Source: Narcine bancroftii
Taxonomy: Eukaryota
Direction: 5' to 3'
Assembly: GCF_036971445.1 (NCBI RefSeq)
Contig: NC_091480.1
Coordinates: forward strand, 66,030,001 to 66,094,000
DNA length: 64,000 nt
Position 1 is the first letter of the stretch. Each line of letters begins with the position of its first letter. This document shows, piece after piece, positions 25,966 through 54,469 of the stretch. The position numbers and the translations under genes are program-made. The notes below the pieces were generated by a model. The model was not told the DNA's origin. It worked only from the letters and a program-made list of their open reading frames with translations, and made no database searches.

Positions 25966-25968
<3 letters not shown>

Positions 25969-26024: not shown

Positions 26025-26027
<3 letters not shown>

Positions 26028-26299: not shown

Positions 26300-26335
<36 letters not shown>

Positions 26336-29300: not shown

Positions 29301-30567
29301 TGGCCACCCAGCGATTGGAAAGATTGAATTGGAAATGGGTGCAGAACATTCATGAGAATGTTACTGGAGCTGGCATGATAATGAGAGGATGGGTGGGCTG
29401 GGGCTTTCCCCTTGAAGTGCAGGGAACTTTTACAGTATAGTCTTACTATTCTAATATTTCAACTTCTATTCTAACTTATATTTATATAAATATGCTCCTT
29501 GGTCCTGGAGAAAAGCTATTTCGTCTTTACTGTGCGAACACGTGTTGAACGTTGATGAAGGTGACTTGACTTGACTTGACGAGAGGGGCAAGTGGAGGAG
29601 ACGAGCTGAGGGGACTCTGCGGCCGAGGGACCAGGTCATGCGGCGGGCTGCTGGCGACCGAGGCGAGGAACCCGCGGAAGGGAACGGCGATTCAAAGAGG
29701 TGCCGATGGCGCTGAAGGGTCCCTGACCATGTCGGAGATCTGGAGCTCGAAGTGCCAATGGCTTGGACTGGATTCTGTGTGGCTGCGGGGGCAGGGGAAG
29801 CGCCGGAAGCGAATCTAAGGGGATGGGGGGTGGGGTGGGGGTGATTCTCTCCCTATAACTGTAAGTCTGACTGTAAGATCTATCAGAGGCGCTTTGGCAA
29901 TTACTGCCGGTGGCGAATCTGTCTGCCTTGCAGCAAGCAAAAGGACATTTCATGTAATAGGACACTCTTTTACCACCAGCATGATCAGTTGAAGCTAGAA
30001 TCTTGAAAGATTTAAAGGGGACCTGTGGGGCACAGTTGTCATACAAAGGGTGGTGGGGAAATAGAAGGAGCGGCCAGAGACAGGAAAATTGTAAGGTGCA
30101 CGAACGTCCATGGACGAAAGGTTTGAAGGCACATGGCTAAAGGCAGGTCAATGGGAGGAGATTGGAGTGTGCTGGGGACATCTGTAACCCAACCGCGGGG
30201 CTGGATAGGCTGAGAAGAATGGCCCCTTAACCCGTCTCTTCGTCGCCTCCAGCCCGACACGGCCGTGCAGCTCTGGGCAGTCAGGAGCCTGCTTTTCTGG
30301 AGCCCACACATTTCTGCTGACGCCAGCGTTGCCCGCAGCGCCAAGGGCGGTGAGCAGCGCAGGGGAACAGGTTGGAACTCACGGCAGAAGGTGGCGGCCG
30401 ACTCCTCCTCCCTCTCTCCATTGCTCCAACCCCATCCTTGTCACCTGATAAGCCGACCAAGCCCTCTGTACAGCTCATAAAAGCAGCTCCAGCCTCTCTC
30501 GGCTGCACCGGGGACTTGCGATCGCCGGAGCAGCTTCGCCGCCACAGAGCCCACATCATCTTTCACC

Positions 30568-33500
30568 ATGTCCTTAACAGGGATCAAGATAACAAGAAGC
30601 TCCTCCAGCAGATCAGGAGGACAACGAAGCTCCGGATTGGGACAATGGGGCGGGAGCCGCATGTCTTCCATAGGTGGAGGATTCAGATCGTCTGGAGGAT
30701 ACCAGGGTGCCGGGCGGGCTCAAAGTCTCATCCTGTCCAGTTCGAGAAGCTCGAGGTTGTCCCGCCCCTCCGGCATGGGGCTCGGTGTTGGTATGGGGCT
30801 CGGTGTTGGCATAGGGCTCGGTGTTGGCATGAAGACGGCTGTGGATCTGCACAGCCCCTTACCCAAAAATGACCTCAGTCAGCAAGCCATTCGTCTCCAG
30901 GAGACGCAGCAGATCACTGGGCTCAACGACCGGTTTGCCTCTTTCATTGAGCAGGTCAGTGCACCAGCTCTCCCCCGTCGCGCATGTTGGGAAGCCGGGG
31001 TTGCGTGTGTCTGGCCAAATGGCGCCTCCTTTCCTTGCCGGCTCCCTGTCAATCTAACCGTGGGCTCGCTTCCCATCCGCAGGTTTGCGCGCTGGAACTG
31101 AAAAATACTGAACTGAAGACCAAACTGGATCTCCTGCAAAAGCAGGGAACTTCCACATCGAACATCGAGAACATGTTCCAAATGTACATCGCCAACCTCA
31201 AGAGGCAACTGGAAGCTCTGGGGCAGGAGAAAGCGAAGTTCGAGTCGGACCTTGTGCAAATGCAGGCGCTGGTTGAGGACTTTAAGGGCAAGTAAGTGCG
31301 TGTGAGGCATTCCCCATTTCATCTGTTCTCGTCCCGGACGCGCTCACGGGGTCAGAGACATGGAGCAGAAGCCGGCAGATTGCGGCAAGGTTCAATGCAT
31401 GAGGCACCCCGCTCTCTCCCACTCGGACACTTGGTTCTGGTGCGGCGGAGCAACAGCAGCGAGTGGGCGTCTGGGGCTTCTCTATGGGACCGGCAAGTGC
31501 GCCAAGAGGAGAGGCGCAGGCGAAGCCGAGCTCTGGAACGCGAGGAGCCTCCCAGAACTCTGAAAGCCAGCGAGATGGACCGGGAGATTCAGGGCAAGGA
31601 GGGCGCGCTGGTCTGGGGCGCGGCAGGGCCGATACTTCCCACGGAGCAGGGAGGGAAGAGCACTCCCAATGAACCGGGCAGCGTGCGAGGCGTCAGCACA
31701 AAGCAGCAGGGTCCCCTCGCAGCAACGGGACTCAATGCCTTCTTTGGAAGAGATTTTCCCTAAAGTCTAGATTCCTTTCAGGTACGAGGATGAAATTAAC
31801 AAGCGGACTGAAATGGAGAACGAGTTTGTCATCGTCAAGAAGGTGAGTATGACTGGCGAGCTGTCTGTCCAATATGTCAAGCGCATTTCCGAGCGAGCTT
31901 TTCAAAGGCGTGGGTCACGAACATCTGTGGACACCGTGGTTGAAGTAAGCAACGACCTTTCACAGCCGTGTGTCCCTTTCCTCTTCAGGATGTCGATGAA
32001 TCCTACATGAACAAGGTGGAACTGGAGGCGAGGCTGGAAGCCTTGACCGATGAACTCGAATTCCTCAAGAGTATCTTTGACGAGGTAAACAGGCGACATG
32101 GTCCGGCAATTGGTCCCTTGCCGATCCCTTCAATCTCCTTTCAGTTCTTTTCCTTCCGCCTGTTATGAGTCCAGAGGAGCCCAAAGCCCAGCAGCAAAAG
32201 ATATTCACCACGACAAGTAGTTACTTCAACAAAAGTTGTTTTAAATTCTCTTTAAACATGGAAACAGGATCAAACTTTAACGTATCACTATTAACTTAAC
32301 GCCCCGACTTAAGCCCCTTTTCATTCTGAGCGCACGTGTACGTAATGTGTGCGTAAATTTAAGAAATGTTCTTTGGAAAGGTAAATGTTTACCACCCAGG
32401 AAGGTTCTTGGAGGTTTGCAGAGAGACATGTGCTGTTCCAGGATTTGCACAATTCAGGTACCACCATTATTCACCTCAATGTCTTTTTGATGAAACTTGC
32501 CCCATGTGGGTTCTCTAGATGATAACCTCTTTCTTTCTGGCCAGCACAGAGTTCCTTTCTGTTCTTCCTATTCCAAAAGAAACATCAGACAGATAGCACT
32601 TCCAGCCATCCGCCACACTGGAGCTTCTGTTTCAGTTTGAACAACCTTCTCCTGGCTGACATTGTTCAGTTTCTCCCTCTCTCTGAGATTCAGAACAGCC
32701 AGCCACATGTCATTCTCTCTCTCTCTCTCTCTCTCTCACTTGCAAAAACCCCTCCTCCTTCTCCAGCAAACAATAGGAGTTCATCTTCTGCTCCCATCTG
32801 TTGTTTTAGGTAAACAAACGTCTCAATGACCTTTGAGTGAGCCCTTTGCAGAGAGGTCAGAAGGCTTGCAAAAATGTCCAACATCATTTCAATTAGCACC
32901 TAATTGTGCAATGTGCATTGCATTCTGCATAGTTTCTGTAAAGCCACTGAATATGAATGCTTCAGAATTTCAAATAAGATCTGTTTTAAAATGTGTGTAT
33001 GTATGTAACCTACTCTAATTCTACCAATTTATCTCCCCAAAACATCTCCAAATATTCCATCACACCACCCACCTTTAGGAAATCCGCGAGCTACAGGCAC
33101 AGATCCAGAACACTTCTGTCTGCGTGCAAGTGGACACTTCTCGTAAACTGGATATGAGTGGGATCATTGAACAGATCAAGAATCAATATAAAATATTGGC
33201 AGATGCTAACCGCAAGGAGGCTGAACAATGGAAAATGATGAAGGTAAGCATTCGCATCCAAGTCGCCAGGTCCCACCTGCACTGGCAGCTCTGACCTCTG
33301 TGTTGGAGGGGGAAACCTTTTGCTGACCAGTTCTCAATGTGTCCTTGCAGATGCAAGAGCTGAGCATGTCAGGTGGAGGTTTGGAAGCAGACATGCGGGC
33401 AATAAAAACAGAATGTAATGATCTGAATCAATCCATCCGGAGAATCAGCATGGACATCGAAAATCTTAAAGCCCAGGTAAGCCTCGGAGTGAAAGCATGC

Positions 33501-35742
33501 AGGATCTGGGTATCAACACCCGCAGTTTGGCAAAATACCCGCTTCTCCTCCCAGCCCAAAGCAAACGGCCAAGAGACGACTGAAATATCCGATCAATTGG
33601 GTCGAATTCTGCCATTCCAGGACCCTCTCACTCCTTCCGGGGAAAGGCTTAGGATCCTGATCCATTCTCAGCCAATCTACAACACAGCACGCTCAGCATG
33701 GTCCTTCTCAAGGAGGGGGTTTGGGTGGCATGTGGCAGGTGAGGCAGCGCTCCACGTACAAGTCATCATGTTAACCTTTGTGCCACTTAGCGTTTGAAAC
33801 TGGAGGCTGATATCAGAGAAGCGGAAGAACGTGGGGAAATGTCTCTCAAAGGCAGTAAAAGCAGAATTCAAGAACTGCAAGACGCCATCCAGAAAGCCAA
33901 GCAAGAGATGACCAAGCAAGTCCAGGAACTCGAGAATCTGATGCAAGTCAAGCTGGGTCTGGATATGGAGATTCTTGCCTACAGGAAGCTCCTAGAGGGA
34001 GAGGAAGCAAGGTAGGACATTGGGTAGTTCCACCTTCCATGTGTGACACCTCTACACCAATTCTGTTTTCTTGTTCCAAAGGAGCGTGGGTGCAGCAGCC
34101 ACGTACCTTGTACCCATGTGCTCCGCGGTGTGCCCCATTTGAGGTTGTGGAGATCCCTGCCATGCTCAGAAAGATGACTGCTTTTTACTATCAGCACTCA
34201 GGCGTGAAGAATGAGCAGCTCGGGCAAGGGTCTGCAGGCTAGAAATCCCCACGGGGTTTCACCCAACCAAGTCAGTGTTCCTTCGAGACGGAAGCAATTT
34301 GTAAACCTGAGCAAAATATGCCTCGAAACGTCCTCGAAAGGCCTGTGGTAACACGAATATTTCTTCTCAACAGGATGGCCGAAGGGATAAGAACACTCAG
34401 CATCCAATCAGTGCAACAGCAAGGTAGGCAGACGTGTCAAGATTTTACCCAGAGAACACAGCTATATGCATTGCTTTAATGATACTTGTTCATGAGTGTT
34501 ACCTCACTGGCCTTCATGGTCTCCTGGCCAAGAGATGGTGTGAACTGAACTCCTCGCTTTTCCCTTCACATCCACCATCCTTTCCTCAGAAAGCTCACAG
34601 TTGACATCTCACCCCTAACTGAGACTCCACATCGCGGCCTTCTTCTGCGATCAGTCGTCGGATGGCACCCTGGCTCCCAGCCTGTTGCTTTAACGAGACT
34701 CCATGTGTCTGTCTCATGGGCAGCAATCCCTCCTCATCCTTACCCTACCCGTGTCTCTGCAACAATATACACCGTTGCATTCACCTTCATTCTCCAGTGT
34801 TTCTTCTGCCTTCTCTCATTGGGACGGGATGCCCTCGCCCCTTTTGATGCCTGACTACCATTTGGTCAGCCGTTCATTCCCTCTAATGTCTGCTCTTCCT
34901 GTTCTGACATCAAGCCAAGGCATTCATCAGAGACATAGTAGCAAGGCCATCCACCTCCATCGTCACCTCCTTCCTATAATCTAACTCAGTCCCTAAGTCA
35001 GGCTGACCTATTCATTTGTGCTTTTCCCTCTTCCACATTGAACTGTTGTGCTCCTCTCTTGGAGCCCTGTTCCAATTCTTGTTGGTACAACCATCTCCAT
35101 CAAAGATCTCTTGTCCTCCTTGTAACTTATTCCAACTCCCACCACCCGCTTTGTTCCCTGATGTATATTTGTTCCGAACTTGGTAATGTTGCATCTTTCC
35201 GATCTCAGTGTCCAACTCTCTCCAGAGCCCTGTGACTGTCCTTACTTATCTCTGCACTCTACTGTCCTGTTATCTCGGTGCCGTGACTGACGGATGCACC
35301 TCGAGCTCCCAAATGCTGACATTTCAGTGATCACCTTTCCAAATCTTACTTCGTCTCGGGTTCTCTTTCCCTCTTTTCAAACGCCGTTTCTCCCCGCCCC
35401 CCTCCCCTCCCACCCCCCACCCCCATGTTTTGATGTGTGCCGATGTAGCTTAGAGTGAAGCTTGTGTTCGATCGAGTCCTTTGGGGTGCATTGTAGTAGC
35501 AAAGTGTCTGCCTTGGTTGTTGCAGTTCTTTCCGAAATTGCAGCGTCCTCATTTCAATGGCCTTTCTCCCCCTTCTCTCCCCCACTGCAGCTGATTATGG
35601 GCAATTTAATCAATTGAGTAGCAAACTGTCTGGATTTCTCCAAGGGGCCGGTGAGATGGAAAGCTCTTCCATACAACTCGGAACACCATTAATTACGAAA
35701 TCGGTGCTGCAATCCAAAAGCCAAGTGCAGAGCACATTTTAA
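30568..35742 (+). CDS. Type II keratin, array copy 3; 9 exons, 488 aa
   Basis: Exons 30568-30954, 31083-31291, 31782-31842, 31989-32084, 33079-33243, 33351-33476, 33791-34011, 34374-34423, 35591-35742. The protein appears identical to copy 2. Confidence 0.93.
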
Positions 35743-37128
35743 ATCACAAGGGAGAACCTCCTGTCCGCTCTGTCGCTCGTGGCTTTCTTGCAAGGCGCAG
35801 CAATTCTTCCTTGTGGTGTTTTTCGTGAAGTGGGTTCACTTGGTCACATTCCCTTTCTGCATGACCTTGGAATTCTGCTCAATGCACGCCGTTGTGCAAC
35901 ATGACATTAACTTCGATCTTAATGAGGGTAGAAATGATATTACATTAGTCTGCAGCTTGGGGTTGTGAGCAAATTGGGGAAGTCATCTTTAATTGTTGGT
36001 CATTGTAAAACAGAAAATGACCCCATGTTTTACATGCTGTATCTGCTCTCTGGTTCTCTCTCTTTCTGTATCGGGAATTTACCTTGTCCATCAATTTTGA
36101 ATAAACTGGAATATTTCAATCTGCAACTCTGGATTTTACTTTGCTCAAGCACATGATTAAATGATCGAAAAGATCAAGGTTCACATCTTCGTGTCGAGTT
36201 GAAGAACAGTGAATCATTCCACTAGTTGCTCTCAAGGAAAGAGGCTGAAAAATAGAACAGATAGACGTCTCGAATCAAAATCACACCCGACCAAGCCGAG
36301 CTGCAACAGAAGGGCTCCCTCACCTGAGATAGGCTAGTTTATTATCTGAAAGTACATACATTGACACTGTTCACAATGCAGCTCAATTATCATAAATTCT
36401 GTGCAACTCGTCAGTGGTGCAGTGAGATAGGCACCGGGCCAGAACAATTCCAGTGGGTCCTGCACACAGAACCAGTCCAAATTGAATGAGGAAAGGACTC
36501 TTCATCTCCGGGCTATGAGGGCCTTGCAGGAAATGGCACGGGGACGAATCCAATGCGTTCTGCAATCTCTAATTTACCAGAATGACTGCAAATTCTCCCA
36601 TTGCTCCCTGAAATGGCGGGTAAAGAAGTGGTAAGGCATGCTTGCCCTTATTGTTCACTGGGTCTAAAATTTGGGAGGTCACGCTGTAGCTGTGTAGCAA
36701 TATGCTGAGGCCACATTTGGAGAATGCTGTGAAGTTCTGGTCACTGCCGTCCAAGGACATTTTTGAGAGGGTGCAGGACATTTTCAGCCGGGAGTTGCCT
36801 GCCTTCGAGAGTATGATCTCCAACGGGTTGGACACATTTGGATTGTTTTCATTTGAATGTTCGAGGCTGAGGGGCGTCCTGAGAGCACCATATCAAATCA
36901 TAACGGTCATAGATAGGCGAGATGGTCAAAGCCTCCCCACCCCCACCGTGGCAAGGTCCAATATTAGAGAACGCAGCTGTCAGGTGAGACAGGGAAAGGT
37001 TAAAAGAGATGTGCGAGGCATGTTCTCCACACAACACACTGAAGAGCTTTGCTCCGGGAGGCAGTGGAAGCAGGTAGCTGCAGCATTTGAAATAGAAGCG
37101 AGGCAGGTTCAGGAATAGGATGAGATGG

Positions 37129-38533
37129 TGTCGGACTCTGGCTTTACCCTACCCTCAATGTAGTCTATATGTCGTCTGAGTCCAGCGTGCTCGTTGAATG
37201 AAGTGATAGGAGAAGGTATTCGGTTCAACAATCAGTTTATTACACAGCACAAGAATAAAGCTTAACAGAGCTCTGGTTCTGTCGTTAGTTCATAGGTCAC
37301 CTGCACAGTGAGCTATTCCCCAAGACTGACCTCTACTGTCCAGTCTCTACAGTTTATATAGCTCAACCTTATCATACAGAACAAAAGTTGGCTTCCTTTG
37401 CTAGATCTCATTATCATACAGAACAAAAGTTGGCTTCCTTTGCTAGATCTCATTATCATACAGAACAAAAGTTGGCTTTCTTTGCTAGATTTCTTGCATA
37501 AGATTTATCACAAGTAATTTCCTGCTCTGCAGATATCTGGGATATAGAACTCCCATCTTAGTCCTCAAGGTCAGAATATCCTGTTATTTTGATCAGAAAT
37601 CAATTCATACCCCAGATATTTCTAATTATTTCTTTGTTCTCATTTGGCCATGTTCTTCTGTTCTACTCAACACCTCCTTCTGCCTTCTTACTGAGTTATT
37701 CCATTCTCTTTGTTTCTGACAGTTTCTGTCAGGATTCTCTTTGTTCTTGTCTGGCCATTGGCTCCTGTGCTAATCAACACCTCCTTTTGCCTTAACCTTC
37801 CTACTAAATTGTTTCATACATATCCTCTCTTTTGTATTTTGGGAGCAGGCAATTCTAAACCTACTGTAATCAGCCAACTTTGCTACATACTGTGGTTGCC
37901 CCTTACTTACATTACTCTTTCCCTTCACCATGAGGTAAATATTAAATTGTTACATAGTCGAAGTACTCGAGATGGCAGAGGTCGACAGCATCGAGTCCAC
38001 GCTGCTGAAGATCCAGCTGCGCTGGATGGGTCACGTCTCCAGAATGGAGGACCATCGCCTTCCCAAGATCGTGTTATATGGCGAGCTCTCCACTGGCCAC
38101 CGTGACAGAGGTGCACCAAAGAAAAGGTACAAGGACTGCCTAAAGAAATCTCTTGGTGCCTGCCACATTGACCACCGCCAGTGGGCTGATAACGCCTCAA
38201 ACCGTGCATCTTGGCGCCTCACAGTTTGGCGGGCAGCAACCTCCTTTGAAGAAGACCGCAGAGCCCACCTCACTGACAAAAGGCAAAGGAGGAAAAACCC
38301 AACACCCAACCCCAACCAACCAATGTTCCCCTGCAACCGCTGCAATCGTGTCTGCCTGTCCCGCATCGGACTTGTCAGGCTGACGTGGACTTTTTACCCC
38401 CTCCATAAATCTTCGTCCGCGAAGCCAAGCCAAAAGAAAAGACATAGTACTGGATTCATGTATACAAACTGAATAGTACATAAGCATATATTCTACATAT
38501 TTTCTATGATTAATTAACCCCTATATTCCAACA
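37129..38533 (-). mobile_element. Solo LTR with nested truncated RTE, unit 3
   Basis: Duplicate of 23940-25344 with the same ATGG TSD. Confidence 0.85.
37959..38441 (+). mobile_element. 5'-truncated RTE, duplicated with the unit
   Basis: Same truncation point, ACATAGT TSD and 17-bp deletion as 24770-25252. Confidence 0.92.
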
Positions 38534-39154
38534 ATGGACAGAACAAGACCCACATGCAGGCAGGTGAGATGATTGGAAAATTGGCCCGATGATTCCCACA
38601 CACATCATGGGCTGAACAGCTTCTGCTGACTGGTCGATGCACGGAGATTTAGAAAATCCAGAACAGTGAAGTGTTCAAAATTAAAACGTAGAATTCAATA
38701 TACACGATCACAAGAACACGTCATTGAAAACCCATATGAAATGCTTCACTTGCTTTCAGTTACCCGGGCCCAGTGCCGGGTGCACCGTCTGCACAAACAG
38801 TCCCAAGACCTGCTCACAGTTCGGGGACTCCCCCTGAGAGTCGGGCCTTTGTATTGGCCACATGGTGCCCAGGCAAAGACCTGCCCACAGCCCACCACCC
38901 CATTGGGAAGCTGGATGTGCGCGGTTACTGGTGTGGGGCAAAAGTGGTTGGGATTCATTCCCTTCCCAACACAGGACTATCAAAACCAACGGAGCAGGAC
39001 AGTTCGCCGCAGAGTGACTGTTTTCAGTGCCGGCAGGGATCAGTGTCCGTGGTTTCCTTCAGTAGCATTCGAGTTGTTGGCTCTCTCGGCATATTCATCA
39101 GCCACGCGTCCAACTGACACTCAGTGCTACAGCGCACATACTGTTGTGTGTGTC

Positions 39155-39220
<66 letters not shown>

Positions 39221-39492
39221 CTTGCGTGTGTATGTGTGGGTGTTTGTCTGTTTGTGTGTGAGTGCGTTCGCGCGCGTGTGCGTGTGTGTGTAAAGAGGAC
39301 ATGACCATATCTACTCTTCATGCCACCCTTTGCAGATTACGCTGTCCGGGGGCTGAAAACCTACCGCATTCTTGGGGTCCCTTACTTGGCCAGGTGAATT
39401 GCCCCCTGTCTGACCAAGGGTCCCTCCACCTGACCACGGATCATTCCTTCTGACCACACACATGCGCGCACACACACACGCATTCACAGACG

Positions 39493-39528
<36 letters not shown>

Positions 39529-42500
39529 TTAGTTTTTCCAGTCCGTGTGTTCAATCCACCTTCTCAGAGCCCCTTTCCCAGCCAGGAGACTCGACGCCCC
39601 TGCAAATCACCTCTCACTATGTGTACACCACTGGATACACACAAACACCAAGGTGACTGCACTCATGTGATGGGCTGAGCAGGGCTGTCCGTGAGGTAGA
39701 CAGGCCATTCTGTGATTAGCGGGCATTGCAATCACAGTCGGGATAGTGGTATGGTTGGACTCATTGGTGAAGGTCAAATGGGCTTGAGGTCAGAGGTTAG
39801 TGTGGGGTCATTGGGGAAGTTTGTGCTTTGTGAGGTCACTGTCCAGGATTTGAACGATCTGTTGAGGGAGCTGACTCTGGTTTTAATTGATGGTTCTGAT
39901 AGTTTTTCCTGATGGGAGCAGCTGGAAGATGTGAGGTGCATTGTGGTGGGGTCTTCCTTGATTTTGAGAGGCCGCTTTAAATACCCATCTCAGTAAATCA
40001 CATTAATGGGAGTGTGCTCCCAGTAATCCTCGCTGCTGCTTTTATGGTCCAGTGGATTTACCTCTGCCCTGTCGCCACGTAGGAACTGTCCGGCCCTGTG
40101 ATACAGCCGGCCTGGACATACTCCATAGAGCTTCTGCAGGAAGTTGACATGATGGTGGGTGATAGTCTTTCCCGTTTAAGCCTTCTAAAGGAGTGCGGTC
40201 GCTGTCGCACCTTCCTGACAAGTGAGGAGATATTGAGTACCCACGATAGGTCATGAGTCATGTGAGCTCCAAAAAACTTGGTGCTCTCCACTCTCGCCAC
40301 TCTCAAGCTATTAACATGCAGTGGAGGCTGATCGTTCCTGGTCCTCCCGAAGGCCACAATCATCTCCTTTTTCTTGATGTACGTTGACTTAATGGTAAGA
40401 GTGTGGCAGTGGGGTGTAATGACTCAGATTAGAGGCCTGTGTCTAATGGTGCGCTGCAGGATTCAGCACTGGCCCCACTCTTGTCTCTTATCAATTTGAA
40501 TGCCTTCTTTTCTTTGAATATTTTATTTATTCAACATATATAATGTCAAGAAGTTAATATAATACCATAGTTACATAATAGTATCTTAACAAATATATGC
40601 TGAAACTATATAAAAAACTAAAATATAAAATAAAAAAGACTAACTACTACAAATAAAAACCGTACACCTACTAATCCATTCACCTGAACTAATCTAATCC
40701 CTAAACTGAAATATATGCCATTTCATTATAAAATGATTACAAATATTTAATTCGGATTGTATCAGTTGACAATCAGAGACCTCAAAAACACCATAAAATT
40801 ACACTTTCAGAGAAAACTTCACTGATCAGGAAAAATAAATTAATAAAATCATACTTTTAATTTCATTATTTTAGCATAGGGACCCCAAATTTTTTAAAAC
40901 AAGAAAAGTTATTCCTTAAATTAGAAGCAATTTTTTCTCATGGAATACAGCTTTGTATTTCAGCATGCCGTCTATCTAATGTTAATGAAACATCGGATTT
41001 CCATGTCACGGTAACACATTTCCTCGCTTTTACTAAAATCAACTTAACAAATTTTAATTGCAAATCTGACAGCGATAATGTAGGAGTGACACTTTCAAAA
41101 TGTCCCAACAAAAATAATTCACGATTTAAAGGAAAGTTCACTCCTGTGATCCGTGGCAAACCCCCAAAGGGTTGACCTTTGAACAAGACCACGTGGAATG
41201 AAGAAAGGTACCAATATCCGTTCCACATCTAAAACATTGATCCGATAAATCCAATCTCCATCGACTCAATTTCTGAGGAGTAAATATGCAGTTGATGTAA
41301 AACATTATAATGAAATCATCTATCTCTTCCATTAATAGGATTTGTCAGAACCTCTTGACACAAATTTTGCCGGTTTTGTAGATCCATAATCATGTCCAAA
41401 CCTCGTTCCCATCTTTCTTTTGATTTAAGCAATCCTAATTTAGGTGTCAGTTCTTGTAACAAAATATATGCAATTGAAATAAATTTTAAAATCATTCCAT
41501 CAACCATAATTTGTTCCAAATTTGAAAGATCTTTTGAATAGTTTCCGATCCTAGTTTCTCTCTTTAGAAAACCCTTCGATTGAAAATAACTAATTAATGT
41601 ATTTTAAGGTACATCATATTCAATCATTAATTGACCTTAACACCCCCTCCTCATTTCCCTTCTAATACCATCTATTTGAAAAAGGAATCTCTTTTGTAAA
41701 AATCAACAAGGGATTAATTAATGGCGTTTTCAATGAAAGAATATTTCCACCAGTTTCCAAGTTTATTTAATTCCAAATATTCAACCAATGTTTTAATATT
41801 GGGCCTTCCCTGTCTATTACACTAGATTTAGAAAGACATTTATAAATAAACTCGTCTCCTATCTTATTAATTCGATATCCACCCATGATGGACTAATGTT
41901 AACGGACATAAAAACTAACAAGCTTAATTGTGCTGCTTTGTACCAATTCTTAAAATTGGGACGTTGTCTTCCTCCTTGATCATATTTCCATGTTAATTTT
42001 ACAACGACTTTCTTACCATCCTCACTTTCCAAAGAAATCCCTGAACTTGCTTATTTAAATCTTGAAAATATTTTGAGGTTAAAGTGTGAACGTCTTCAAT
42101 GCCGACGATACCAAAAGTTCGTGCTATACCTGAGAGTGGAGAAGGTGATCCCGGATTACAACAGGATGCAGATGAACTGGACAAGCAGAGCAAGGAACGG
42201 CAGATGGGATTTCACTCGGAAAGTGCGAGGTGTTGCATTGAGGTGGATTAATTAATCCAGGGCAAGAATTACATGGTGAATGGAAGGTCGCTGGGGCGTG
42301 CTGCAGCACAAGGAGGCTTGGGACACAGCCAGATATTTCCATGGAGGCAGTGACCCAAGAGGACAGGGTAGCGAAGAAGGTGTTTTCCACGCTTGCCTTC
42401 TTTGGTTAGGGAAGTAAGTCCAGGTGCAGGGATGTCATGTTCCGACTCCACAGGACGTTGGGGAGACCAGAGCTGGAGTGTGGTGTGCAATTCTGGCCAC

Positions 42501-43762
42501 CCAGCGATTGGAAAGATTGAATTGGAAATGGGTGCAGAACATTCATGAGAATGTTACTGGAGCTGGCATGATAATGAGAGGATGGGTGGGCTGGGGCTTT
42601 CCCCTTGAAGTGCAGGGAACTTTTACAGTATAGTCTTACTATTCTAATATTTCAACTTCTATTCTAACTTATATTTATATAAATATGCTCCTTGGTCCTG
42701 GAGAAAAGCTATTTCGTCTTTACTGTGCGAACACGTGTTGAACGTTGATGAAGGTGACTTGACTTGACTTGACGAGAGGGGCAAGTGGAGGAGACGAGCT
42801 GAGGGGACTCTGCGGCCGAGGGACCAGGTCATGCGGCGGGCTGCTGGCGACCGAGGCGAGGAACCCGCGGAAGGGAACGGCGATTCAAAGAGGTGCCGAT
42901 GGCGCTGAAGGGTCCCTGACCATGTCGGAGATCTGGAGCTCGAAGTGCCAATGGCTTGGACTGGATTCTGTGTGGCTGCGGGGGCAGGGGAAGCGCCGGA
43001 AGCGAATCTAAGGGGATGGGGGGTGGGGTGGGGGTGATTCTCTCCCTATAACTGTAAGTCTGACTGTAAGATCTATCAGAGGCGCTTTGGCAATTACTGC
43101 CGGTGGCGAATCTGTCTGCCTTGCAGCAAGCAAAAGGACATTTCATGTAATAGGACACTCTTTTACCACCAGCATGATCAGTTGAAGATAGAATCTTGAA
43201 AGATTTAAAGGGGACCTGTGGGGCACAGTTGTCATACAAAGGGTGGTGGGGAAATAGAAGGAGCGTCCAGAGACAGGAAAATTGTAAGGTGCACGAACGT
43301 CCATGGACAGGAAAGGTTTGAAGGCACATGGCTAAAGGCAGGTCAATGGGAGGAGATTGGAGTGTGCTGGGGACATCTGTAACCCAACCGCGGGGCTGGA
43401 TAGGCTGAGAAGAATGGCCCCTTAACCCGTCTCTTCGTCGGCTCCAGCCCGACACGGCCGTGCAGCTCTGGGCAGTCAGGAGCCTGCTTTTCTGGAGCCC
43501 ATACATTTCTGCTGACGCCAGCGTTGCCCGCAGCGCCAAGGGCGGTGAGCAGCGCAGGGGAACAGGTTGGAACTCACGGCAGAAGGTGGCGGCCGACTCC
43601 TCCTCTCTCTCTCCATTGCTCCAACCCCATCCTTGTCACCTGATAAGCCGACCAAGCCCTCTGTACAGCTCATAAAAGCAGCTCCAGCCTCTCTCGGCTG
43701 CACCGGGGACTTGCGATCGCCGGAGCAGCTTCGCCGCCACAGAGCCCACATCATCTTTCACC

Positions 43763-45887
43763 ATGTCCTTAACAGGGATCAAGATAACAAGAAGCTCCTC
43801 CAGCAGATCAGGAGGACAACGAAGCTCCGGATTGGGACAATGGGGCGGGAGCCGCATGTCTTCCATAGGTGGAGGATTCAGATCGTCTGGAGGATACCAG
43901 GGTGCCGGGCGGGCTCAAAGTCTCATCCTGTCCAGTTCGAGAAGCTCGAGGTTGTCCCGCCCCTCCGGCATGGGGCTCGGTGTTGGTATGGGGCTCGGTG
44001 TTGGCATGAAGACGGCTGTGGATCTGCACAGCCCCTTACCCAAAAATGACCTCAGTCAGCAAGCCATTCGTCTCCAGGAGACGCAGCAGATCACTGGGCT
44101 CAACGACCGGTTTGCCTCTTTCATTGAGCAGGTCAGTGCACCAGCTCTCCCCCGTCGCGCATGTTGGGAAGCCGGGGTTGCGTGTGTCTGGCCAAATGGC
44201 GCCTCCTTTCCTTGCCGGCTCCCTGTCAATCTAACCGTGGGCTCGCTTCCCATCCGCAGGTTTGCGCGCTGGAACTGAAAAATACTGAACTGAAGACCAA
44301 ACTGGATCTCCTGCAAAAGCAGGGAACTTCCACATCGAACATCGAGAACATGTTCCAAATGTACATCGCCAACCTCAAGAGGCAACTGGAAGCTCTGGGG
44401 CAGGAGAAAGCGAAGTTCGAGTCGGACCTTGTGCAAATGCAGGCGCTGGTTGAGGACTTTAAGGGCAAGTAAGTGCGTGTGAGGCATTCCCCATTTCATC
44501 TGTTCTCGTCCCGGACGCGCTCACGGGGTCAGAGACATGGAGCAGAAGCCGGCAGATTGCGGCAAGGTTCAATGCATGAGGCACCCCGCTCTCTCCCACT
44601 CGGACACTTGGTTCTGGTGCGGCGGAGCAACAGCAGCGAGTGGGCGTCTGGGGCTTCTCTATGGGACCGGCAAGTGCGCCAAGAGGAGAGGCGCAGGCGA
44701 AGCCGAGCTCTGGAACGCGAGGAGCCTCCCAGAACTCTGAAAGCCAGCGAGATGGACCGGGAGATTCAGGGCAAGGAGGGCGCGCTGGTCTGGGGCGCGG
44801 CAGGGCCGATACTTCCCACGGAGCAGGGAGGGAAGAGCACTCCCAATGAACCGGGCAGCGTGCGAGGCGTCAGCACAAAGCAGCAGGGTCCCCTCGCAGC
44901 AACGGGACTCAATGCCTTCTTTGGAAGAGATTTTCCCTAAAGTCTAGATTCCTTTCAGGTACGAGGATGAAATTAACAAGCGGACTGAAATGGAGAACGA
45001 GTTTGTCATCGTCAAGAAGGTGAGTATGACTGGCGAGCTGTCTGTCCAATATGTCAAGCGCATTTCCGAGCGAGCTTTTCAAAGGCGTGGGTCACGAACA
45101 TCTGTGGACACCGTGGTTGAAGTAAGCAACGACCTTTCACAGCCCTGTGTCCCTTTCCTCTTCAGGATGTCGATGAATCCTACATGAACAAGGTGGAACT
45201 GGAGGCGAGGCTGGAAGCCTTGACCGATGAACTCGAATTCCTCAAGAGTATCTTTGACGAGGTAAACAGGCGACATGGTCCGGCAATTGGTCCCTTGCCG
45301 ATCCCTTCAATCTCCTTTCAGTTCTTTTCCTTCCGCCTGTTATGAGTCCAGAGGAGCCCAAAGCCCAGCAGCAAAAGATATTCACCACGACAAGTAGTTA
45401 CTTCAACAAAAGTTGTTTTAAATTCTCTTTAAACATGGAAACAGGATCAAACTTTAACGTATCACTATTAACTTAACGCCCCGACTTAAGCCCCTTTTCA
45501 TTCTGAGCGCACGTGTAAGTAATGTGTGCGTAAATTTAAGAAATGTTCTTTGGAAAGGTAAATGTTTACCACCCAGGAAGGTTCTTGGAGGTTTGCAGAG
45601 AGACATGTGCTGTTCCAGGATTTGCACAATTCAGGTACCACCATTATTCACCTCAATGTCTTTTTGATGAAACTTGCCCCATGTGGGTTCTCTAGATGAT
45701 AACCTCTTTCTTTCTGGCCAGCACAGAGTTCCTTTCTGTTCTTCCTATTCCAAAAGAAACATCAGACAGATAGCACTTCCAGCCATCCGCCACACTGGAG
45801 CTTCTGTTTCAGTTTGAACAACCTTCTCCTGGCTGACATTGTTCAGTTTCTCCCTCTCTCTGAGATTCAGAACAGCCAGCCACATGT

Positions 45888-45921
<34 letters not shown>

Positions 45922-48900
45922 TGCAAAAACCCCTCCTCCTTCTCCAGCAAACAATAGGAGTTCATCTTCTGCTCCCATCTGTTGTTTTAGGTAAACAAAC
46001 GTCTCAATGACCTTTGAGTGAGCCCTTTGCAGAGAGGTCAGAAGGCTTGCAAAAATGTCCAACATCATTTCAATTAGCACCTAATTGTGCAATGTGCATT
46101 GCATTCTGCATAGTTTCTGTAAAGCCACTGAATATGAATGCTTCAGAATTTCAAATAAGATCTGTTTTAAAATGTGTGTATGTATGTAACCTACTCTAAT
46201 TCTACCAATTTATCTCCCCAAAACATCTCCAAATATTCCATCACACCACCCACCTTTAGGAAATCCGCGAGCTACAGGCACAGATCCAGAACACTTCTGT
46301 CTGCGTGCAAGTGGACACTTCTCGTAAACTGGATATGAGTGGGATCATTGAACAGATCAAGAATCAATATAAAATATTGGCAGATGCTAACCGCAAGGAG
46401 GCTGAACAATGGAAAATGATGAAGGTAAGCGTTCGCATCCAAGTCGCCAGGTCCCACCCGCACTGGCAGCTCTGACCTCTGTGTTGGAGGGGGAAACCTT
46501 TTGCTGACCAGTTCTCGATGTGTTCTTGCAGATGCAAGAGCTGAGCATGTCAGGTGGAGGTTTGGAAGCAGACATGCGGGCAATAAAAACAGAATGTAAT
46601 GATCTGAATCAATCCATCCGGAGAATCAGCATGGACATCGAAAATCTTAAAGCCCAGGTAAGCCTCGGAGTGAAAGCATGCAGGATCTGGGTATCAACAC
46701 CCGCAGTTTGGCAAAATACCCTCTTCTCCTCCCAGCCCAAAGCAAACGGCCAAGAGACGACTGAAATCTCCGATCAATTGGGTCGAATTCTGCCATTCCA
46801 GGACCCTCTCACTCCTTCCGGGGAAAGGCTTAGTATGCTGATCCATTCTCAGCCAATCTACAACACAGCACGCTCAGCATGGTCCTTCTCAAGGAGGGGG
46901 TTTGGGTGGGGTGTGGCAGGTGAGGCAGCGCTCCACGTACAAGTCATCATGTTAACCTTTGTGCCACTTAGCGTTTGAAACTGGAGGCTGATATCAGAGA
47001 AGCGGAAGAACGTGGGGAAATGTCTCTCAAAGGCAGTAAAAGCAGAATTCAAGAACTGCAAGACGCCATCCAGAAAGCCAAGCAAGAGATGACCAAGCAA
47101 GTCCAGGAACTCGAGAATCTGATGCAAGTCAAGCTGGGTCTGGATATGGAGATTCTTGCCTATAGGAAGCTCCTGGAGGGAGAGGAAGCAAGGTAGGACA
47201 TTGGCCAGTTCCACCTTCCATTTGTGACACCTTTACACCAGTATGTGTACTTGCATAGCTCAATATGCTTTGGTGCTCTGATATATTGTTGTGACTGGGA
47301 TTTTTGACTTTGAAAATAGCATTCAGTCAGTTAGTTCATCTAAGCACCAAGCTCATTTCCAGAATTAACTGTGAGTCAGTTGTTCATGCACCATTTCTCA
47401 TGTTGGCATAACTCTCCCAATAGTTCAGTAGATGATGGTATTGTACGTCGTATCCAGATTTAATAGTATTTCGACCATACTCTTTTTTTGTGTTGTTACA
47501 ACTCCAGAGGACCCCAAAACCCAGCAGCAATAGGAATTCACCAAGATCAATGGCCACTTAAACAAAAGTTGCTTTTACTCATCTTTAAACATGAAAATGG
47601 GATCAAACTGTAACTTATTACTCTTAACTTAACCTTAACAACCTCCTTCTAATTTTAAGCGCATGTGTATGTAATGTGTATATGTTCAGGAAAGTTCTTT
47701 GATTTAGTGTCCAATCTCACTTATCACTACTCCAAGTCAGGCAAGTCTTACACTGTTCATAGAATTTTACATATATGAATTTTCACCATGCTTTGCTGCT
47801 TACAGGCAAATTGTTACTGTTCAGGAAGGTTATTGTCGATTTTCAGATGGAGAAATTTGTTGCTCATTGGACACACACAAACTGATTTCCTCGAACCAAT
47901 AACTTCAGTGTCTTGGTGAAGAAACTTGCCCCATCATTGGTTTTCCAAATTATAACCCATTCTTCTAGGTCACCACAGAGTTCCTCTTGTTTCCCTTATT
48001 TCAGGTGTAACAGTCTAGCCAATCATTTCCTCTTGCAAAGACTACAAGTGTTTTTCACCAGGCTGAACTCAGAACTCACAACTCGTCTTCAAAATGTGGG
48101 TTTCAACAAGCTGCTAGCTTGCCATTATGCAGCCTCAAAAACCACTGTAGAAATCAGTTCTCTTTCTGTCTAAAAGAGAAATCCTGTTTGGTCTTTTCTC
48201 TCTCTCTCTCTGCTTGCAAAACCACTTGACCCCTCTTAGAACAGCAAACTGCAACCAGACAGATGGCTGGCACCGGAATCAGTTTCTGCTGGTCATCTGT
48301 TGCTTTAAAGACAATAGTTCATTTACTCCACAGCATCGGTCCAATTAATACCTACGTGAAGTCTCCATAGGCACTCTTCAAAGTTTCTGCAAAGTCACTG
48401 TGGACATGAAGTCTCTCTTTCAGCAAAGCTCTTGCATTTTAAATGGGATGTGTTTTGTAAGTATCTGTTTGTGAAGTGACCTACCATAAACCCACAACAA
48501 TCTATCTCTTTTACAAACATTTATATATAATATAAAATATAATATACCCCATAACAGTGTGGACAGTTGTGCTCCTGACCTCCTGAAGGAGCCCAGAATC
48601 TTTTTTCCTATTTGAGCAGCACCGTTAGTGTAGTGCCAGTGACCCAGCTTCAAATCTGGTGCTGTCTGTCAGGAGTTTGTACACTCTCCCCATATCTGCG
48701 TGGGTTTCTGCTGGATGCTCCTGTTTCCTCCCACCCTCTAAAACCTTTCGGGTGTTTGTAGGTTCATTTGGGTGAAATTGGGCTGCATGGGTTTAAATGC
48801 TGTAATCAGCTTCTACCATTCTGTAAATAAAAAAAATTAATACATTTCATTTAAAATTTGAGGCCCTTCCATGCTCAGAAAGGCTTTTTACTATCAGCGC

Positions 48901-49962
48901 TCAGACGTGAAGAATGAACAGCTCGGCCAAGGGTCTGCAGGGTAGAAATCCCCACAGAGGTTCACCCAACAAAGTCAGTGTTCCTTAGAGAGGGAAGCAA
49001 TTTGTAAACCTGAGCAATATATGCCTTGGAACATCCTCAAAAGACCTGTGGTAACACGAATATTTCTTCTCAACAGGATGGCCGAAGGGATAAGAACACT
49101 CAGCATCCAATCAGTGCAACAGCAAGGTAGGGAAATGTGTAATTCCTTGTCAAAACTTTTCCCAGAGAATAAAATATAAATTAAAATCTCCCCTCATTCT
49201 TCTACGCTCCAGGGAATAAAGTCCTAACCTCTTTAACCTTTCCCTGCAACTCAATTCCTGAAGTCCCAGCAACATCCTAGGAAATCTTCTCTGCACTCTT
49301 TCAATCTTATTACACACAATACTCCAAATTTGGCCTCACCAATGTCTTATACTACTTTAGCATAGCATCCCAACTCAATACTGTGATTTATGAAGGCCAA
49401 TTTGCCAAAACTCTCTTTACGACCCTATCTACCTGTAATGCCGCTTTCAGGGAATTATGTATCTGTATTCCCAGATCCCTCTGATCTACTGCACTCCTCA
49501 GCGCCCGACCATTTACCATGTATGTTCTACCTTGGTTTTTCCTTCCAAAATACAACACCTCCCACTTCTATGCATTACATTCCATCTGCTATTTTCTGGC
49601 CCATTTCCCCAATTGGCCCAGATTCCGCTGCAAGCTTAAAAAGCCTTCCTCGCTTCCCACAACACCTCCAATCTGAGTGTCATCTGCAAACTTGCTGATC
49701 CAATTGACTACATTATCAGCCAGTTCATTGATATAGATGACAAACAACACTGGTCTCAGCACTGATAATCATAGTTTTCAACTTTGTTTCCTTTTGTAAA
49801 GGCCAGTATGGTGGAGGCTCCTTTTATAAGAATGATCTGGACATGATGAGATCCTCTTACGCTGGCGGAGAACAGTCAGAGCCCAATAAGACTGTACTGG
49901 TGAAAACAATTGAGCAATTAGATGGTGTGACCGTTTCATCAAGAACAACTGCCTTGCTATAA
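43763..49962 (+). CDS. Type II keratin, array copy 4, with a different K8-like tail exon; 9 exons, 485 aa
   Basis: Exons 43763-44131 (18 nt shorter head), 44260-44468, 44959-45019, 45166-45261, 46260-46424, 46532-46657, 46972-47192, 49077-49126, and predicted 49802-49962. The last exon follows actttgtttccttttgtaaag| in the required phase 1 and encodes [53 protein letters not shown]. Confidence 0.88.
47494..48556. mobile_element. Solo LTR in intron 7 of copy 4, same family as the intron 4 element
   Basis: Termini TGTTAC...ATAACA with a 4-bp TSD GTGT. Shares tccagagga.cccaaa.cccagcagcaa and many other blocks with 3189-4092. Confidence 0.8.
48615..48835 (+). mobile_element. tRNA-derived V-SINE (HE1-like)
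   Basis: Degenerate B-box (ttcaaatc), V-domain ggagtttgtacactctcccca..tctgcgtgggtttc and an A-rich tail. Confidence 0.65.
49180..49762 (-). mobile_element. Decayed CR1-type LINE fragment in intron 8 of copy 4
   Basis: Contains gtgtcatctgcaaactt (minus-strand KFADDT) and is homologous to 56750-57690. Confidence 0.65.
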
Positions 49963-50222
49963 TGCAGAAAGAATTCACGGAATTATGAGAATCTTGCAAC
50001 TAAACAATTTTATTGCTATCTCTTATTCATTTGTCATCTTTAATTCAGAGTTCAATTTTGTTAATTCTAGCTTTACATTTTTGTGAAACCTTTTAAAAGG
50101 TTGACACTGTAAAATCCCTTGGTTATGCCTTGATGCTTTTGCTGGGATAAGGAATGGTCACAATCTTTTGATCATCCGAATCACTGATCAATCTGTCAAA
50201 TGCAACATATGCTCCACAGACC

Positions 50223-50228
50223 AATAAA
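50223..50228 (+). terminator. Candidate polyadenylation signal of copy 4
   Basis: AATAAA ~260 nt after the TAA at 49960-49962. Confidence 0.45.
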
Positions 50229-50729
50229 TTGAACTGTAGTGACATCAGTGGCCATATAATGGATTCATGTTGGTGGAATCATTTATTAGCATCGATTACA
50301 CATTACTGAATCCCTCAGACATACTTTGGTATTAACAACTATGAATGGTTCGGTACATCTCTCTCATTGAACATTACAGCATAGTACAGGCCCTTCAGCC
50401 TTTGATGTTGTGTTGATCAATATGACTTTGATTCTGATCATTTGACAACTAGATACAAAAAATATTGAGATGTTTTTTGGAAAAGCTTGAGAAGATACTA
50501 TCATTTGAATTTTTGGTTGCTTGAATGAGAAATAAACTAAAATTTTTCAAATGGATCCATTTCATGTTTCTGAATCCAATTTAAAAAAACCAAGCACCTT
50601 CTCTTCAAGAACAAATTATTGCTTTCTTTATTTTCGACGTTTACCATTTTGTTTCTCTACCGATTTTTCTTCCATTGTGCTTTGAACCTCACATTTCTCT
50701 GCTTGGTAATTCTTTTGACTCACTCTTCC

Positions 50730-50900
50730 TGCAGCGCCAGCGGCCCAGGTTCGAATCCGGTGCTGTCTGTCAGTCTTCCCGCAGCGCCTGCGGCCCAAGT
50801 TTGAAACCGGCGCTCCGGTCTCCCACCCAAGTTCCAAAGATGTACAGGGTCGGAAGGCTAATTGGTCAAGTGGGTGTAATTGGGCGGTGTGGCTCATGGG
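50730..50900 (+). mobile_element. V-SINE fragment
   Basis: B-box ggttcgaatcc, followed by gctccggtctcccaccc. Confidence 0.55.
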
Positions 50901-50999
50901 AGCCTACTCTTTCTTTCCTCGACATTGAACACTGCATTCACACTACTTCCTGTACTTACACTGAACTTTAAATTTTCCTCACATATTAATTTTCACCCT

Positions 51000-52830: not shown

Positions 52831-53084
52831 CTAATTTTACCTTTGTAGTATCCATTGCCTGAATTGCCTGATTTTTATCTTTGATGGTAAGGGTCATTGC
52901 TCCCCAAATGTTATTTATAATTCACAGGTGTGTCTTTGAAGAGTTCAAATGGTTGGTTACACAAAATTCAAGCTTACACCTAAATAGAGAGCGTAGGTGT
53001 TCAGTGATACAGTCACCCAATCTGCGTTTGGTTTCATCAATGTATAGGAGGCTACCCCTTGTGCACTAAATGCAGTAGATTAGA

Positions 53085-53920: not shown

Positions 53921-54469
53921 TCTTGTCCTGTCTTGCAACTTGGGTTGGGTGAAATTTTCCACTTGGCCTTAACCCTTTGGACTCCAGCCATTTGTAACCT
54001 TAGATGATATATACTGCTGTTTAGGTCCATGGGTAAACTACAGTGTGAACACTAGTCTGAACCAGCTGGTGGTTGTGTATAAAACCAGTCCTGGAAAACG
54101 GGGGACATGGATAATCCCTGAAATCTGGGACACGGAGTCCAAAGGATGAAGCATGACCCATTTTGGGAAAAGCAGGATGCTGGAAGTGGATGTTTTAAAT
54201 ATTGTACCTCTTTTCCAGAGGGCAGGTGTCAGGACCTTTACTCACATGAAGATCAGAAGAAACAGTACCCCTTCTTAAAAAAAATCCAGGAACTGTGCTA
54301 CACATTAGAATTAGTGTCTCACTTCACCTCACTGCTTCCCCAGCTGAAGATCAGGGTTCCAGACTCACACAGTTACCCTCGCTGTGTAACTGCACATGTC
54401 ACCCTAACAGGTGAGTGAAGTGGAACAAGAAAGTCTGCAGATGCTGGGGTCAAGTGCAACACACAAACT

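What the first reader, a model, noticed from the sequence alone, without database searches (positions are those of the whole stretch)
43763..49962. Tail-swapped keratins: the same head and rod joined to two unrelated tail exons
Seen: copy 4 is essentially identical to copies 1-3 until late exon 7. Two silent changes then appear (TAC>TAT at 47163, CTA>CTG at 47175), intron 7 becomes a visibly diverged paralog with its own LTR and SINE, and exon 8 is still identical. The ADYGQ...QSTF exon 9 is absent. An in-phase exon at 49802-49962 instead encodes a tail ending [24 protein letters not shown]. Known: that end resembles the K8 C-terminal motif (AVVVKKIETRDGKLVSESS), and unequal crossover between adjacent paralogs creates hybrid genes (Hb Lepore/anti-Lepore). 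Inference: copy 4 is a parental gene, and copies 1-3 are an amplified chimera (its promoter, head and rod plus the 3' end of an upstream paralog), with the crossover at or before the YRKLLEGEE region. The locus would then make one filament rod with two tails and two 3'UTRs, in a ratio set by copy number.
Basis: partly seen in the sequence, partly recalled or inferred. Interest (0 to 1): 0.85.

Follow-up and report, generated by a model that had tools for sequence, protein, structure and literature searches.

The report
Ray keratins: shared rod, two tails
In this ray, neighbouring keratin genes keep exchanging DNA, so they share almost the same filament-forming part while each keeps its own, much older tail; this is a known kind of gene exchange and not a newly made hybrid gene.

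Summary
Four tandem 9-exon type II keratin genes share promoter to exon 7 (0.1-0.5% substitutions) and exon 8. Copies 1-3 end in tail A, copy 4 in a K8-like tail B.

The single-crossover chimera reading is only partly right. Both tails are old batoid paralog lineages. Tail B is closest to a Mobula hypostoma protein; tail A matches Pristis, M. birostris, Hemitrygon and record P0003, which also carries this rod. Rods group by species lineage and tails by paralog, and each rejects the other's grouping (AU p 0.0007 and 6e-49; 0.009 and 0.00015). Mobula A and B rods are 99.1% alike but 67% like the window's, so homogenisation happened independently. Inside the window, exchange is layered at about 10%, 2.5%, 0.4% and 0.03%. 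The tails are distantly homologous.

Verdict: partial concerted evolution of an old paralog pair, of the SIGLEC5/14 type, plus copy gain by unequal crossover. Expression, function and the array's upstream end are untested, and no outside species yielded both tails.

The parts
43763..47192 (+). Copy 4 (gene B) exons 1-7: head and rod, homogenised with copies 1-3; exon 1 lacks one 18-bp repeat at 43990
   Evidence: Pfam Filament hits on exons 1, 2, 4, 5 and 7 (5 of the 6 rod or head exons scanned; exon 6 gave none; exon 3 not scanned)
42800..45261 (+). GC- and CpG-rich promoter and first exons (GC 0.56-0.58, CpG o/e 0.63-0.75; 0.43 and 0.43 at 50-64 kb); CATAAAA at 43671; inferred start zone of exchange
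   Evidence: role inferred
43188..43441 (.). Patchy junction of the latest copy-adding crossover: copy 3 matches copy 4 upstream (last shared sites 43402, 43424-5) and copy 2 downstream
47163..47253 (+). End of the recent (about 0.4%) A/B identity: silent changes at 47163 and 47175, then about 87% identity at the start of intron 7
47494..48556 (.). Solo LTR in gene B intron 7 (TGTTA..TAACA, GTGT target duplication); same family (75-76%) as the element in intron 4 of all copies
48629..48743 (.). SINE-like repeat in gene B intron 7
   Evidence: copies at 50730, 55449, 59764; class name recalled
48856..49182 (+). Older exchange layer: intron 7 3' part (about 90%), exon 8 (49077-49126, identical to gene A), first 45 or so homologous bases of intron 8; the true tail switch point is here
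49183..49770 (-). Decayed LINE fragment (CR1-like, name recalled) filling most of gene B intron 8
49802..49962 (+). Exon 9B: K8-like tail, closest to the Mobula hypostoma P0027 tail (27 of 52 identical)
49963..50245 (+). Gene B 3'UTR, AATAAA at 50223
1596..6768 (+). Copy 1 (gene A1); exon 9A at 6617-6768, AATAAA at 7126
17379..22553 (+). Copy 2 (gene A2); exon 9A at 22402-22553
30568..35742 (+). Copy 3 (gene A3), youngest duplicate; exon 9A at 35591-35742
27770..40962 (+). One full tandem period of about 13.19 kb (14578 to 27770 to 40963; homology ends at 47240)

Best explanation
These are two old neighbouring K8-like type II keratin paralogs of a batoid: A (at least three copies here) and B (the last copy). 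They exchange DNA repeatedly, by gene conversion and unequal crossover, across promoter, head, rod and at times exon 8, while exon 9 and the 3'UTR stay outside the exchange. SHOWN: rods group by species lineage and tails by paralog; the window holds four ages of exchange; the latest copy gain has its junction in the proximal promoter. INFERRED: tracts start in the CpG-rich 5' end and stop at heterology, now the LTR and SINE in B intron 7 and earlier the first 45 bases of intron 8. INFERRED: shared promoters give co-expression, identical rods pair with the same type I partner, and filaments carry A and B tails in a ratio that follows copy number (here 3 or more to 1). The tails look selected, since they are about as conserved as the rod between relatives. 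The donor of the older exchange was weakly more likely A.
For: Rod tree of 28 rows: starred clades join A- and B-tailed proteins within the window, within Mobula (100/98) and within skates (100/100). Holding the B-tailed rods together is rejected (p-AU 0.0007 for 4 rows; 6e-49 for window plus Mobula; 15 rows). Tail tree of 19 rows: copy 4 plus M. hypostoma 95/94; lineage-wise grouping of tails is rejected (p-AU 0.009 and 0.00015). The Mobula A and B rods are identical at 329 of 332 positions, against 277 of 332 for Mobula A and Hemitrygon A and 224 of 332 for copy 4 and Mobula B. Profiles built without window rows give copy 1 43.7 bits on A and 11.5 on B, and copy 4 40.2 bits on B and 6.7 on A. 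Layers: 9.6-12.9% (intron 7), 2.5% (A1 against A2, 3' side), 0.34-0.5% (5' halves), and 2 substitutions in 7.4 kb of spacer. The 5 sites shared by copies 3+4 all lie upstream of the 8 shared by copies 2+3 (p 0.002-0.006). Tail and rod identity are 82 and 82% against P0003, and 89 and 88% between two skates.
Against: No outside species gave both tails among my hits. The Mobula pair comes from two species, and members of the 90% clusters could not be listed. The skate A and B rods are only 74% identical, and the Rhinoraja tail is unresolved in the tail tree. The A|B split in the tail tree has support of only 74/57, although one change suffices in 96% of 200 bootstrap trees. Shark tails are intermediate (Stegostoma z 6.3 on A, 7.4 on B). 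Mobula heads are only 77% alike, so the head is not always homogenised. The 2.5% layer rests on copy 1, which is joined to the rest across a 145-N gap. There are no expression or functional data. The donor hint is weak (14 against 5 strong-to-weak differences, p 0.06).
Confidence: 0.75

Rival explanations
1. One reading: one unequal crossover at or before the end of exon 7 joined B's promoter, head and rod to the 3' end of a long-diverged gene A, making a new chimeric protein that was then amplified.
For: The geometry fits an anti-Lepore array: the period is 13.19 kb and homology ends at 47240. Copies 2 and 3 carry the A-to-B spacer. An upstream gene with another 5' half cannot be excluded from this window.
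Against: P0003 has this rod lineage with tail A. The 3' halves of A copies are six times more diverged than their 5' halves (p 3e-13). Intron 7 and exon 8 were already 90-100% alike between A and B. The latest junction is in the promoter. Mobula shows the same pattern with its own rod.
Confidence: 0.1
2. The ancestor was one gene with two alternative last exons; other rays still splice both, and the duplicates here lost one each.
For: It would explain shared rods in each lineage without conversion. All outside evidence is protein only, with no genomic context.
Against: No remnant of the other tail or UTR lies near any copy. The Mobula A and B proteins differ in the head (70 of 91 identical) while the rods are 99% alike, which suggests two genes. 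The visible parts of their names carry no isoform label. It does not explain the layered divergence.
Confidence: 0.07
3. Copy 4 is the derived gene: a Lepore-type deletion joined an A 5' half to the 3' end of gene B and removed B's own distinct 5' half once, recently.
For: It gives the same local geometry. The rod goes with tail A in P0003. B's share of intron 7 has lost CpG relative to A (6 against 1 differences in CpG).
Against: It needs an earlier event for the 10% layer and an independent one in Mobula, which amounts to recurrent exchange again.
Confidence: 0.06
4. Assembly artefact: the 5' half of B was replaced by collapsed A sequence, or copies are haplotypes joined in tandem.
For: Copies 2 and 3 are 99.6% alike over 19 kb. 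A 145-N gap at 8738-8882 separates copy 1.
Against: Copy 4 has 10 private substitutions and 2 private indels spread over its 5' half. Copies 2-4 are gapless. The gap falls where the next spacer has a (TG)n run. A named Mobula protein has the same exon 8 to tail B join. An artefact could still change the copy number.
Confidence: 0.03

Closest known systems
SIGLEC5/SIGLEC14 and SIGLEC11/SIGLEC16 partial gene conversion (PMC4042635 passages; PMC5701461 abstract)
   Same: Adjacent paralogs with 5' halves homogenised separately in each lineage, different C-terminal parts kept, and fusion alleles from crossover in the shared part.
   Different: Those are immune receptors in primates with opposite signalling, shown by experiment. 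Here it is a structural filament protein, the tails date to at least the split of batoid orders (150 million years or more, recalled), and the function of the two tails is untested.
Concerted evolution of mammalian keratins K6A/B/C, K81/K83/K86/K87, K31/K33A/K33B/K34 (PMC5540548 passages)
   Same: Tandem keratin paralogs group by species and not by ortholog.
   Different: The passages seen do not split rod from tail, and conversion was detected in only 3 of 19 groups. Here the boundary is mapped to intron 8, and the tails keep their own paralog tree.
Hb Lepore / anti-Lepore and the red-green opsin array (recalled, not looked up)
   Same: Unequal crossover between adjacent paralogs adds or removes a copy with one gene's upstream region and the other's 3' end.
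   Different: Here the 5' halves were already near-identical, so copy gain changes dose and yields no new protein; the latest junction is in the promoter.
Elasmobranch 'keratin, type II cytoskeletal 8-like' proteins; cluster 2 of Kimura and Nikaido (bioRxiv 10.1101/2020.05.06.063123, parts 1-2 of 5 and passages)
   Same: The window's rod falls inside this group, in a starred batoid clade (100/99).
   Different: The paper sampled elephant shark only among cartilaginous fish and has no occurrence of 'conversion' or 'concerted'. Whether this locus is cluster 2 was not testable: no flanking marker gene was seen in the window.

Membership tests
Type II keratin gene | Intermediate-filament rod ending in the YRKLLEGEE motif | tested here: met
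   Pfam Filament E 5.6e-20 on exon 7 and hits on exons 1, 2, 4, 5; motif in the translation
Type II keratin gene | Nine exons with a short exon 8 and the tail in exon 9 (layout recalled) | tested here: met
   all four copies
Type II keratin gene | Best relatives are type II keratins | tested here: met
   Named hits to exon 7 are type II keratins or unlabelled IF-rod proteins; none is labelled type I (63 hits among 255 candidates)
Type II keratin gene | Heterodimer with a type I keratin | not tested
   No type I partner from this organism was at hand
Canonical krt8 ortholog | Head-to-head with krt18; rod groups with K8 | tested here: inconclusive
   Copies 2-4 have no head-to-head partner. The rod lies in an elasmobranch clade apart from the sturgeon, gar, tarpon and platypus rows (root not inferred). 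No Keratin_2_head match on exon 1. It is K8-like; orthology is not claimed.
Partial concerted evolution of paralogs | Converted part groups by species, unconverted part by paralog | tested here: met
Partial concerted evolution of paralogs | Both paralogs present as separate genes in several species | tested here: inconclusive
   Shown for the window only; outside A and B proteins come from different species
Partial concerted evolution of paralogs | Sharp identity boundaries and mosaic variants among copies | tested here: met
Anti-Lepore hybrid gene | Extra copy between two parents, with the upstream region of the downstream gene | tested here: met
   Copy 3 has copy 4's upstream region and copy 2's body
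Anti-Lepore hybrid gene | Product is a new protein found in neither parent | tested here: not met
   Copy 3's protein equals copy 2's; rod plus tail A occurs in P0003
Anti-Lepore hybrid gene | Upstream parent with a different 5' half | not testable with these tools
   The window starts 1.6 kb upstream of copy 1, inside the shared region

The most novel reading that the evidence does not exclude
Across sharks and rays, the K8-like keratin cluster works as a 'one rod, several tails' system. A fast-evolving rod is kept uniform within each species by recurrent conversion, so that all products co-assemble with one type I partner. Two or more tail exons are kept by selection for 150-250 million years, and their ratio is tuned by copy number. 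This would be a gene-level stand-in for alternative last exons. Possible further cases among my hits: zebra shark against whale shark (rod 92%, exon 8 16 of 16, tails 30%) and the two Scyliorhinus proteins (rod 83%, tails not alignable).
Probability: 0.35. Interest if true: 0.65.

Novelty: new variant of a known kind. Interest (0 to 1): 0.48.

Why it matters
The locus is a natural tail-swap experiment. Rods are the same and tails differ, so what a type II keratin tail does for bundling, mechanics or signalling can be tested without the rod as a confounder. It also warns that rod-based keratin trees and the blanket 'K8-like' labels misassign orthologs in sharks and rays: orthology sits in exon 9 and the 3'UTR. 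Short RNA reads can tell the genes apart only there. The mechanism itself, partial gene conversion with copy-number change, is well known.

Tried and rejected
- Database search with tail B alone: 12 candidates, none at E<=1, although P0027 is in the database; the word filter is lossy for short queries.
- HMMER search of the 50% representatives with tail B: 2 hits, P0178 and P0179, unnamed proteins of 762 and 634 aa with 7 and 5 weak stretches. This looks like repeat summation; they were not examined.
- Pfam on both tails: 0 families each. Rfam on the window: 0 matches.
- Cluster members of five named proteins could not be listed, so same-species A/B pairs hidden in 90% clusters stay unchecked.
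- Remnant search for the other tail: none. Alternative acceptor scan of 49127-50300: a strict filter of at least 16 pyrimidines in 20 bases gave one site (49212, inside the LINE, 22-codon frame) and missed the real acceptor, so it is uninformative.
- Idea that the intron-4-like sequence in B intron 7 is a relic gene duplication: rejected, because it is a solo LTR with its own target duplication.
- Idea that the RTE insertion marks the upstream limit of exchange: not supported, since divergence already falls from about 9460.
- Idea that sites shared by copies 1 and 4 need their own conversion: not needed; they are explained as changes on the copy 2 lineage before its duplication.
- No fold or complex prediction was run; neither would bear on the question.
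- Rows left out. Rod tree: win_c2, win_c3, P0026 (near-identical). Tail tree: 19 of the 28 tails; left out were win_c2, P0076, P0079, P0080, P0083, P0084, P0085, P0086 and P0088. The third-type tails (P0076, P0080, P0084) and P0088 match neither A nor B; P0085 is ambiguous (z 3.7 on A, 3.1 on B).
Full report
1. What is in the window. A self-comparison shows a tandem period of about 13.19 kb (14578, 27770, 40963), with homology ending at 47240. Four complete nine-exon genes lie on the + strand, each with GT-AG at all eight introns and an open frame. Pfam Filament matches exons 1, 2, 4, 5 and 7; exon 6 and both tails match no filament family, and exons 3 and 8 were not scanned. An exon 7 search gave 63 hits among 255 candidates, and the named ones are type II keratins or unlabelled IF-rod proteins. 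In a rod tree of 28 rows the window falls in a starred batoid clade, outside the stingray/manta, sawfish and skate groups. By elimination it is probably an electric ray; this is an inference, as no named member of that order was among the hits.

2. Copy 4 differs from copies 1-3 by 18-23 substitutions in about 5,000 columns up to late exon 7. The silent changes at 47163 and 47175, the identical exon 8, the solo LTR (47494-48556, GTGT target duplication), the SINE-like repeat and the in-phase exon 49802-49962 with AATAAA at 50223 are all there. Neither tail has a remnant beside the other gene type. Homology between gene A (copies 1-3) and gene B (copy 4) resumes in intron 7 at about 90% and ends about 45 bases into intron 8. 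The tail switch is therefore in intron 8.

3. Both tails are old. A profile search gave 3,870 proteins at E<=1e-100 among 8,000 scored, with 120 listed. I used the 20 named chondrichthyan proteins in that list, three unnamed records (P0003, P0083, P0085) and four bony-vertebrate outgroups. Tail B is closest to Mobula hypostoma P0027 (z 20.6; 27 of 52 identical), and also matches two skates, Callorhinchus and the three bony-vertebrate tails tested. Tail A matches P0003 (41 of 50), Pristis (z 17.5), Hemitrygon and M. birostris (z 8-9). Profiles built without window rows assign copy 1 to A and copy 4 to B (43.7 against 11.5 bits; 40.2 against 6.7). The A and B profiles align with probability 93% (E 2.9e-7), so the tails are distant homologs. 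P0003 encodes this rod lineage (82%) with tail A on a contig of 1,859 bases, which I take to be a spliced transcript (inferred). The named Mobula protein shows the exon 8 to tail B join, which supports exon 9B without proving its use in this species.

4. Rods and tails have different histories. Rods group by lineage: window A with window B, Mobula A with Mobula B (329 of 332 identical), and skate A with skate B. Holding the B-tailed rods together is rejected (p-AU 0.0007 for four rows, 6e-49 for window plus Mobula; 15 rows). Tails group by paralog: copy 4 with M. hypostoma at 95/94, and lineage-wise grouping is rejected (p-AU 0.009 and 0.00015; 19 rows). The A and B labels were set from the tail alignment, before the trees were seen. 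The Mobula A rod is 83% like the Hemitrygon A rod but 99% like the Mobula B rod, so Mobula homogenised after that split, and separately from the window's lineage (67%). Against this reading: no outside species gave both tails; cluster members could not be listed; the skate rods are only 74% alike and the Rhinoraja tail is unresolved; the A|B branch has support 74/57; shark tails are intermediate; and the Mobula heads are 77% alike.

5. The window records several rounds of exchange. (i) About 10%: the A/B ends of intron 7 (8 of 62 and 18 of 187), with an 87-base identical tract over exon 8; the chance of that tract is 0.005 if only intronic and silent sites are free. (ii) About 2.5%: copy 1 against copy 2 from intron 8 onward (63 of 2540 non-coding bases; most differences lie beyond 6100). 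(iii) About 0.4%: the 5' halves of copies 1, 2 and 4 (15 of 3774 non-coding bases for 1 against 2; p 3e-13 against layer ii). (iv) About 0.03%: the spacers 2-to-3 and 3-to-4 differ by two substitutions and one TG indel over 7.4 kb. Five columns shared by copies 3 and 4 all lie upstream of eight shared by copies 2 and 3 (p 0.002, or 0.006 when counted as events). This places the latest crossover near 43425-43441 in the promoter, with a patchy tract from 43188. One crossover followed by amplification cannot give 3' halves older than 5' halves. Layer ii depends on copy 1, which is joined across a 145-N gap at the position where the next spacer has a (TG)n run.

6. Mechanism. Shown: recurrent exchange limited mainly to the 5' part, and copy gain by unequal crossover. 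Inferred: exchange starts in the CpG-rich 5' end (CpG o/e 0.63-0.75, against 0.43 at 50-64 kb) and stops at heterology, now the 1.5 kb of B-only sequence in intron 7. From established knowledge (recalled), the rod sets pairing with type I keratins and the tails project from the filament; shared promoters and rods would then give mixed filaments with two tails. The tails are about as conserved as the rods between relatives (82 and 82%; 89 and 88%), which suggests selection. Direction is open, with a weak lean to A as donor of the old layer (14 against 5, p 0.06; CpG 6 against 1). Artefact is unlikely: copy 4 has 10 private substitutions and 2 private indels in its 5' half, and copies 2-4 are gapless.

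7. Comparison with what is known. It works like SIGLEC5/14 and SIGLEC11/16, where the 5' parts are converted in each primate lineage, the tails differ and fusion alleles arise (PMC4042635, passages; PMC5701461, abstract). Concerted evolution is reported for mammalian K6 and K81/83/86/87 (PMC5540548, passages). Kimura and Nikaido describe keratin clusters in elephant shark without any mention of conversion (parts 1-2 of 5 and passages; its supplements were not seen and could hold the elephant shark sequences). PMC8733776 (passages) says chondrichthyan type II keratins are close to KRT8 ancestors. PMC13558645 (passages) lists krt8 in dogfish epithelial and mucosal cells without resolving paralogs. 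Seven keratin searches (seen as listings and abstract openings) showed no paper on rod homogenisation with retained tails in cartilaginous fish. The library lacks most subscription journals, including older shark keratin work (recalled). Lepore and opsin arrays are recalled only.

8. Verdict. It is a new variant of a known kind. Interest 0.48. The bolder reading, an elasmobranch-wide one-rod, several-tails system under selection, has probability 0.35 and would merit 0.65. Unchecked: the upstream end of the array, genomic context in other species, expression, the unnamed hits P0178 and P0179, and the metagenome and viral contig collections.

Noticed in passing
window 60255-60477 (-): Intact exon 7 of another, divergent type II keratin (55% identical to the array's exon 7; Pfam Filament E 6e-21), facing the array tail to tail. 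No convincing exon 8 or 9 was found in 50001-60250 (a weak candidate at 56442-56546, E 0.38), and exon 6 is not in the window.
   Followed up: partly
window 10528-14578 (-): Apparently full-length LINE (RTE-like, name recalled) with an intact 1118-codon frame (13941-10588), present only in the spacer after copy 1; about 17 bases of the empty site are missing and no target duplication was seen. Fragments 95-98.5% alike lie at 24768-25260, 37957-38449 and 62640-63449, so the family is recently active.
   Followed up: partly
window about 60970-64000 (+): L1/Tx1-like element read by eye (coiled-coil ORF1 to about 62315; an endonuclease-like start near 63850), interrupted by the RTE-like fragment with a duplicated flank (62308-62442 / 62480-62614). 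A related minus-strand fragment seems to fill part of each array spacer.
   Followed up: no
window 45338-46244 and 47494-48556: The same LTR family (75-76% identical) has inserted into intron 4 of all four copies and into intron 7 of copy 4.
   Followed up: partly
window 23940-25344 and its counterpart after copy 3: A 1.4-kb segment with a 42-base tandem repeat and the RTE-like fragment, present after copies 2 and 3 and absent after copy 1.
   Followed up: no
P0075 / P0076 / P0080 / P0084; P0086 / P0088: Carpet sharks show a third tail type. Zebra shark and whale shark proteins share rod (305 of 332) and exon 8 (16 of 16) but not tails (14 of 46), and the two Scyliorhinus proteins also differ in tail: possible further cases of the same process.
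   Followed up: partly
P0025 / P0026: Two Mobula birostris A-tail proteins differing by 2 residues are listed with the same longest contig length (84,691,625), which suggests that gene A is multi-copy there too.
   Followed up: no
window 8738-8882: A 145-N gap between copies 1 and 2, at the place of a (TG)n microsatellite in the other spacers.
   Followed up: partly
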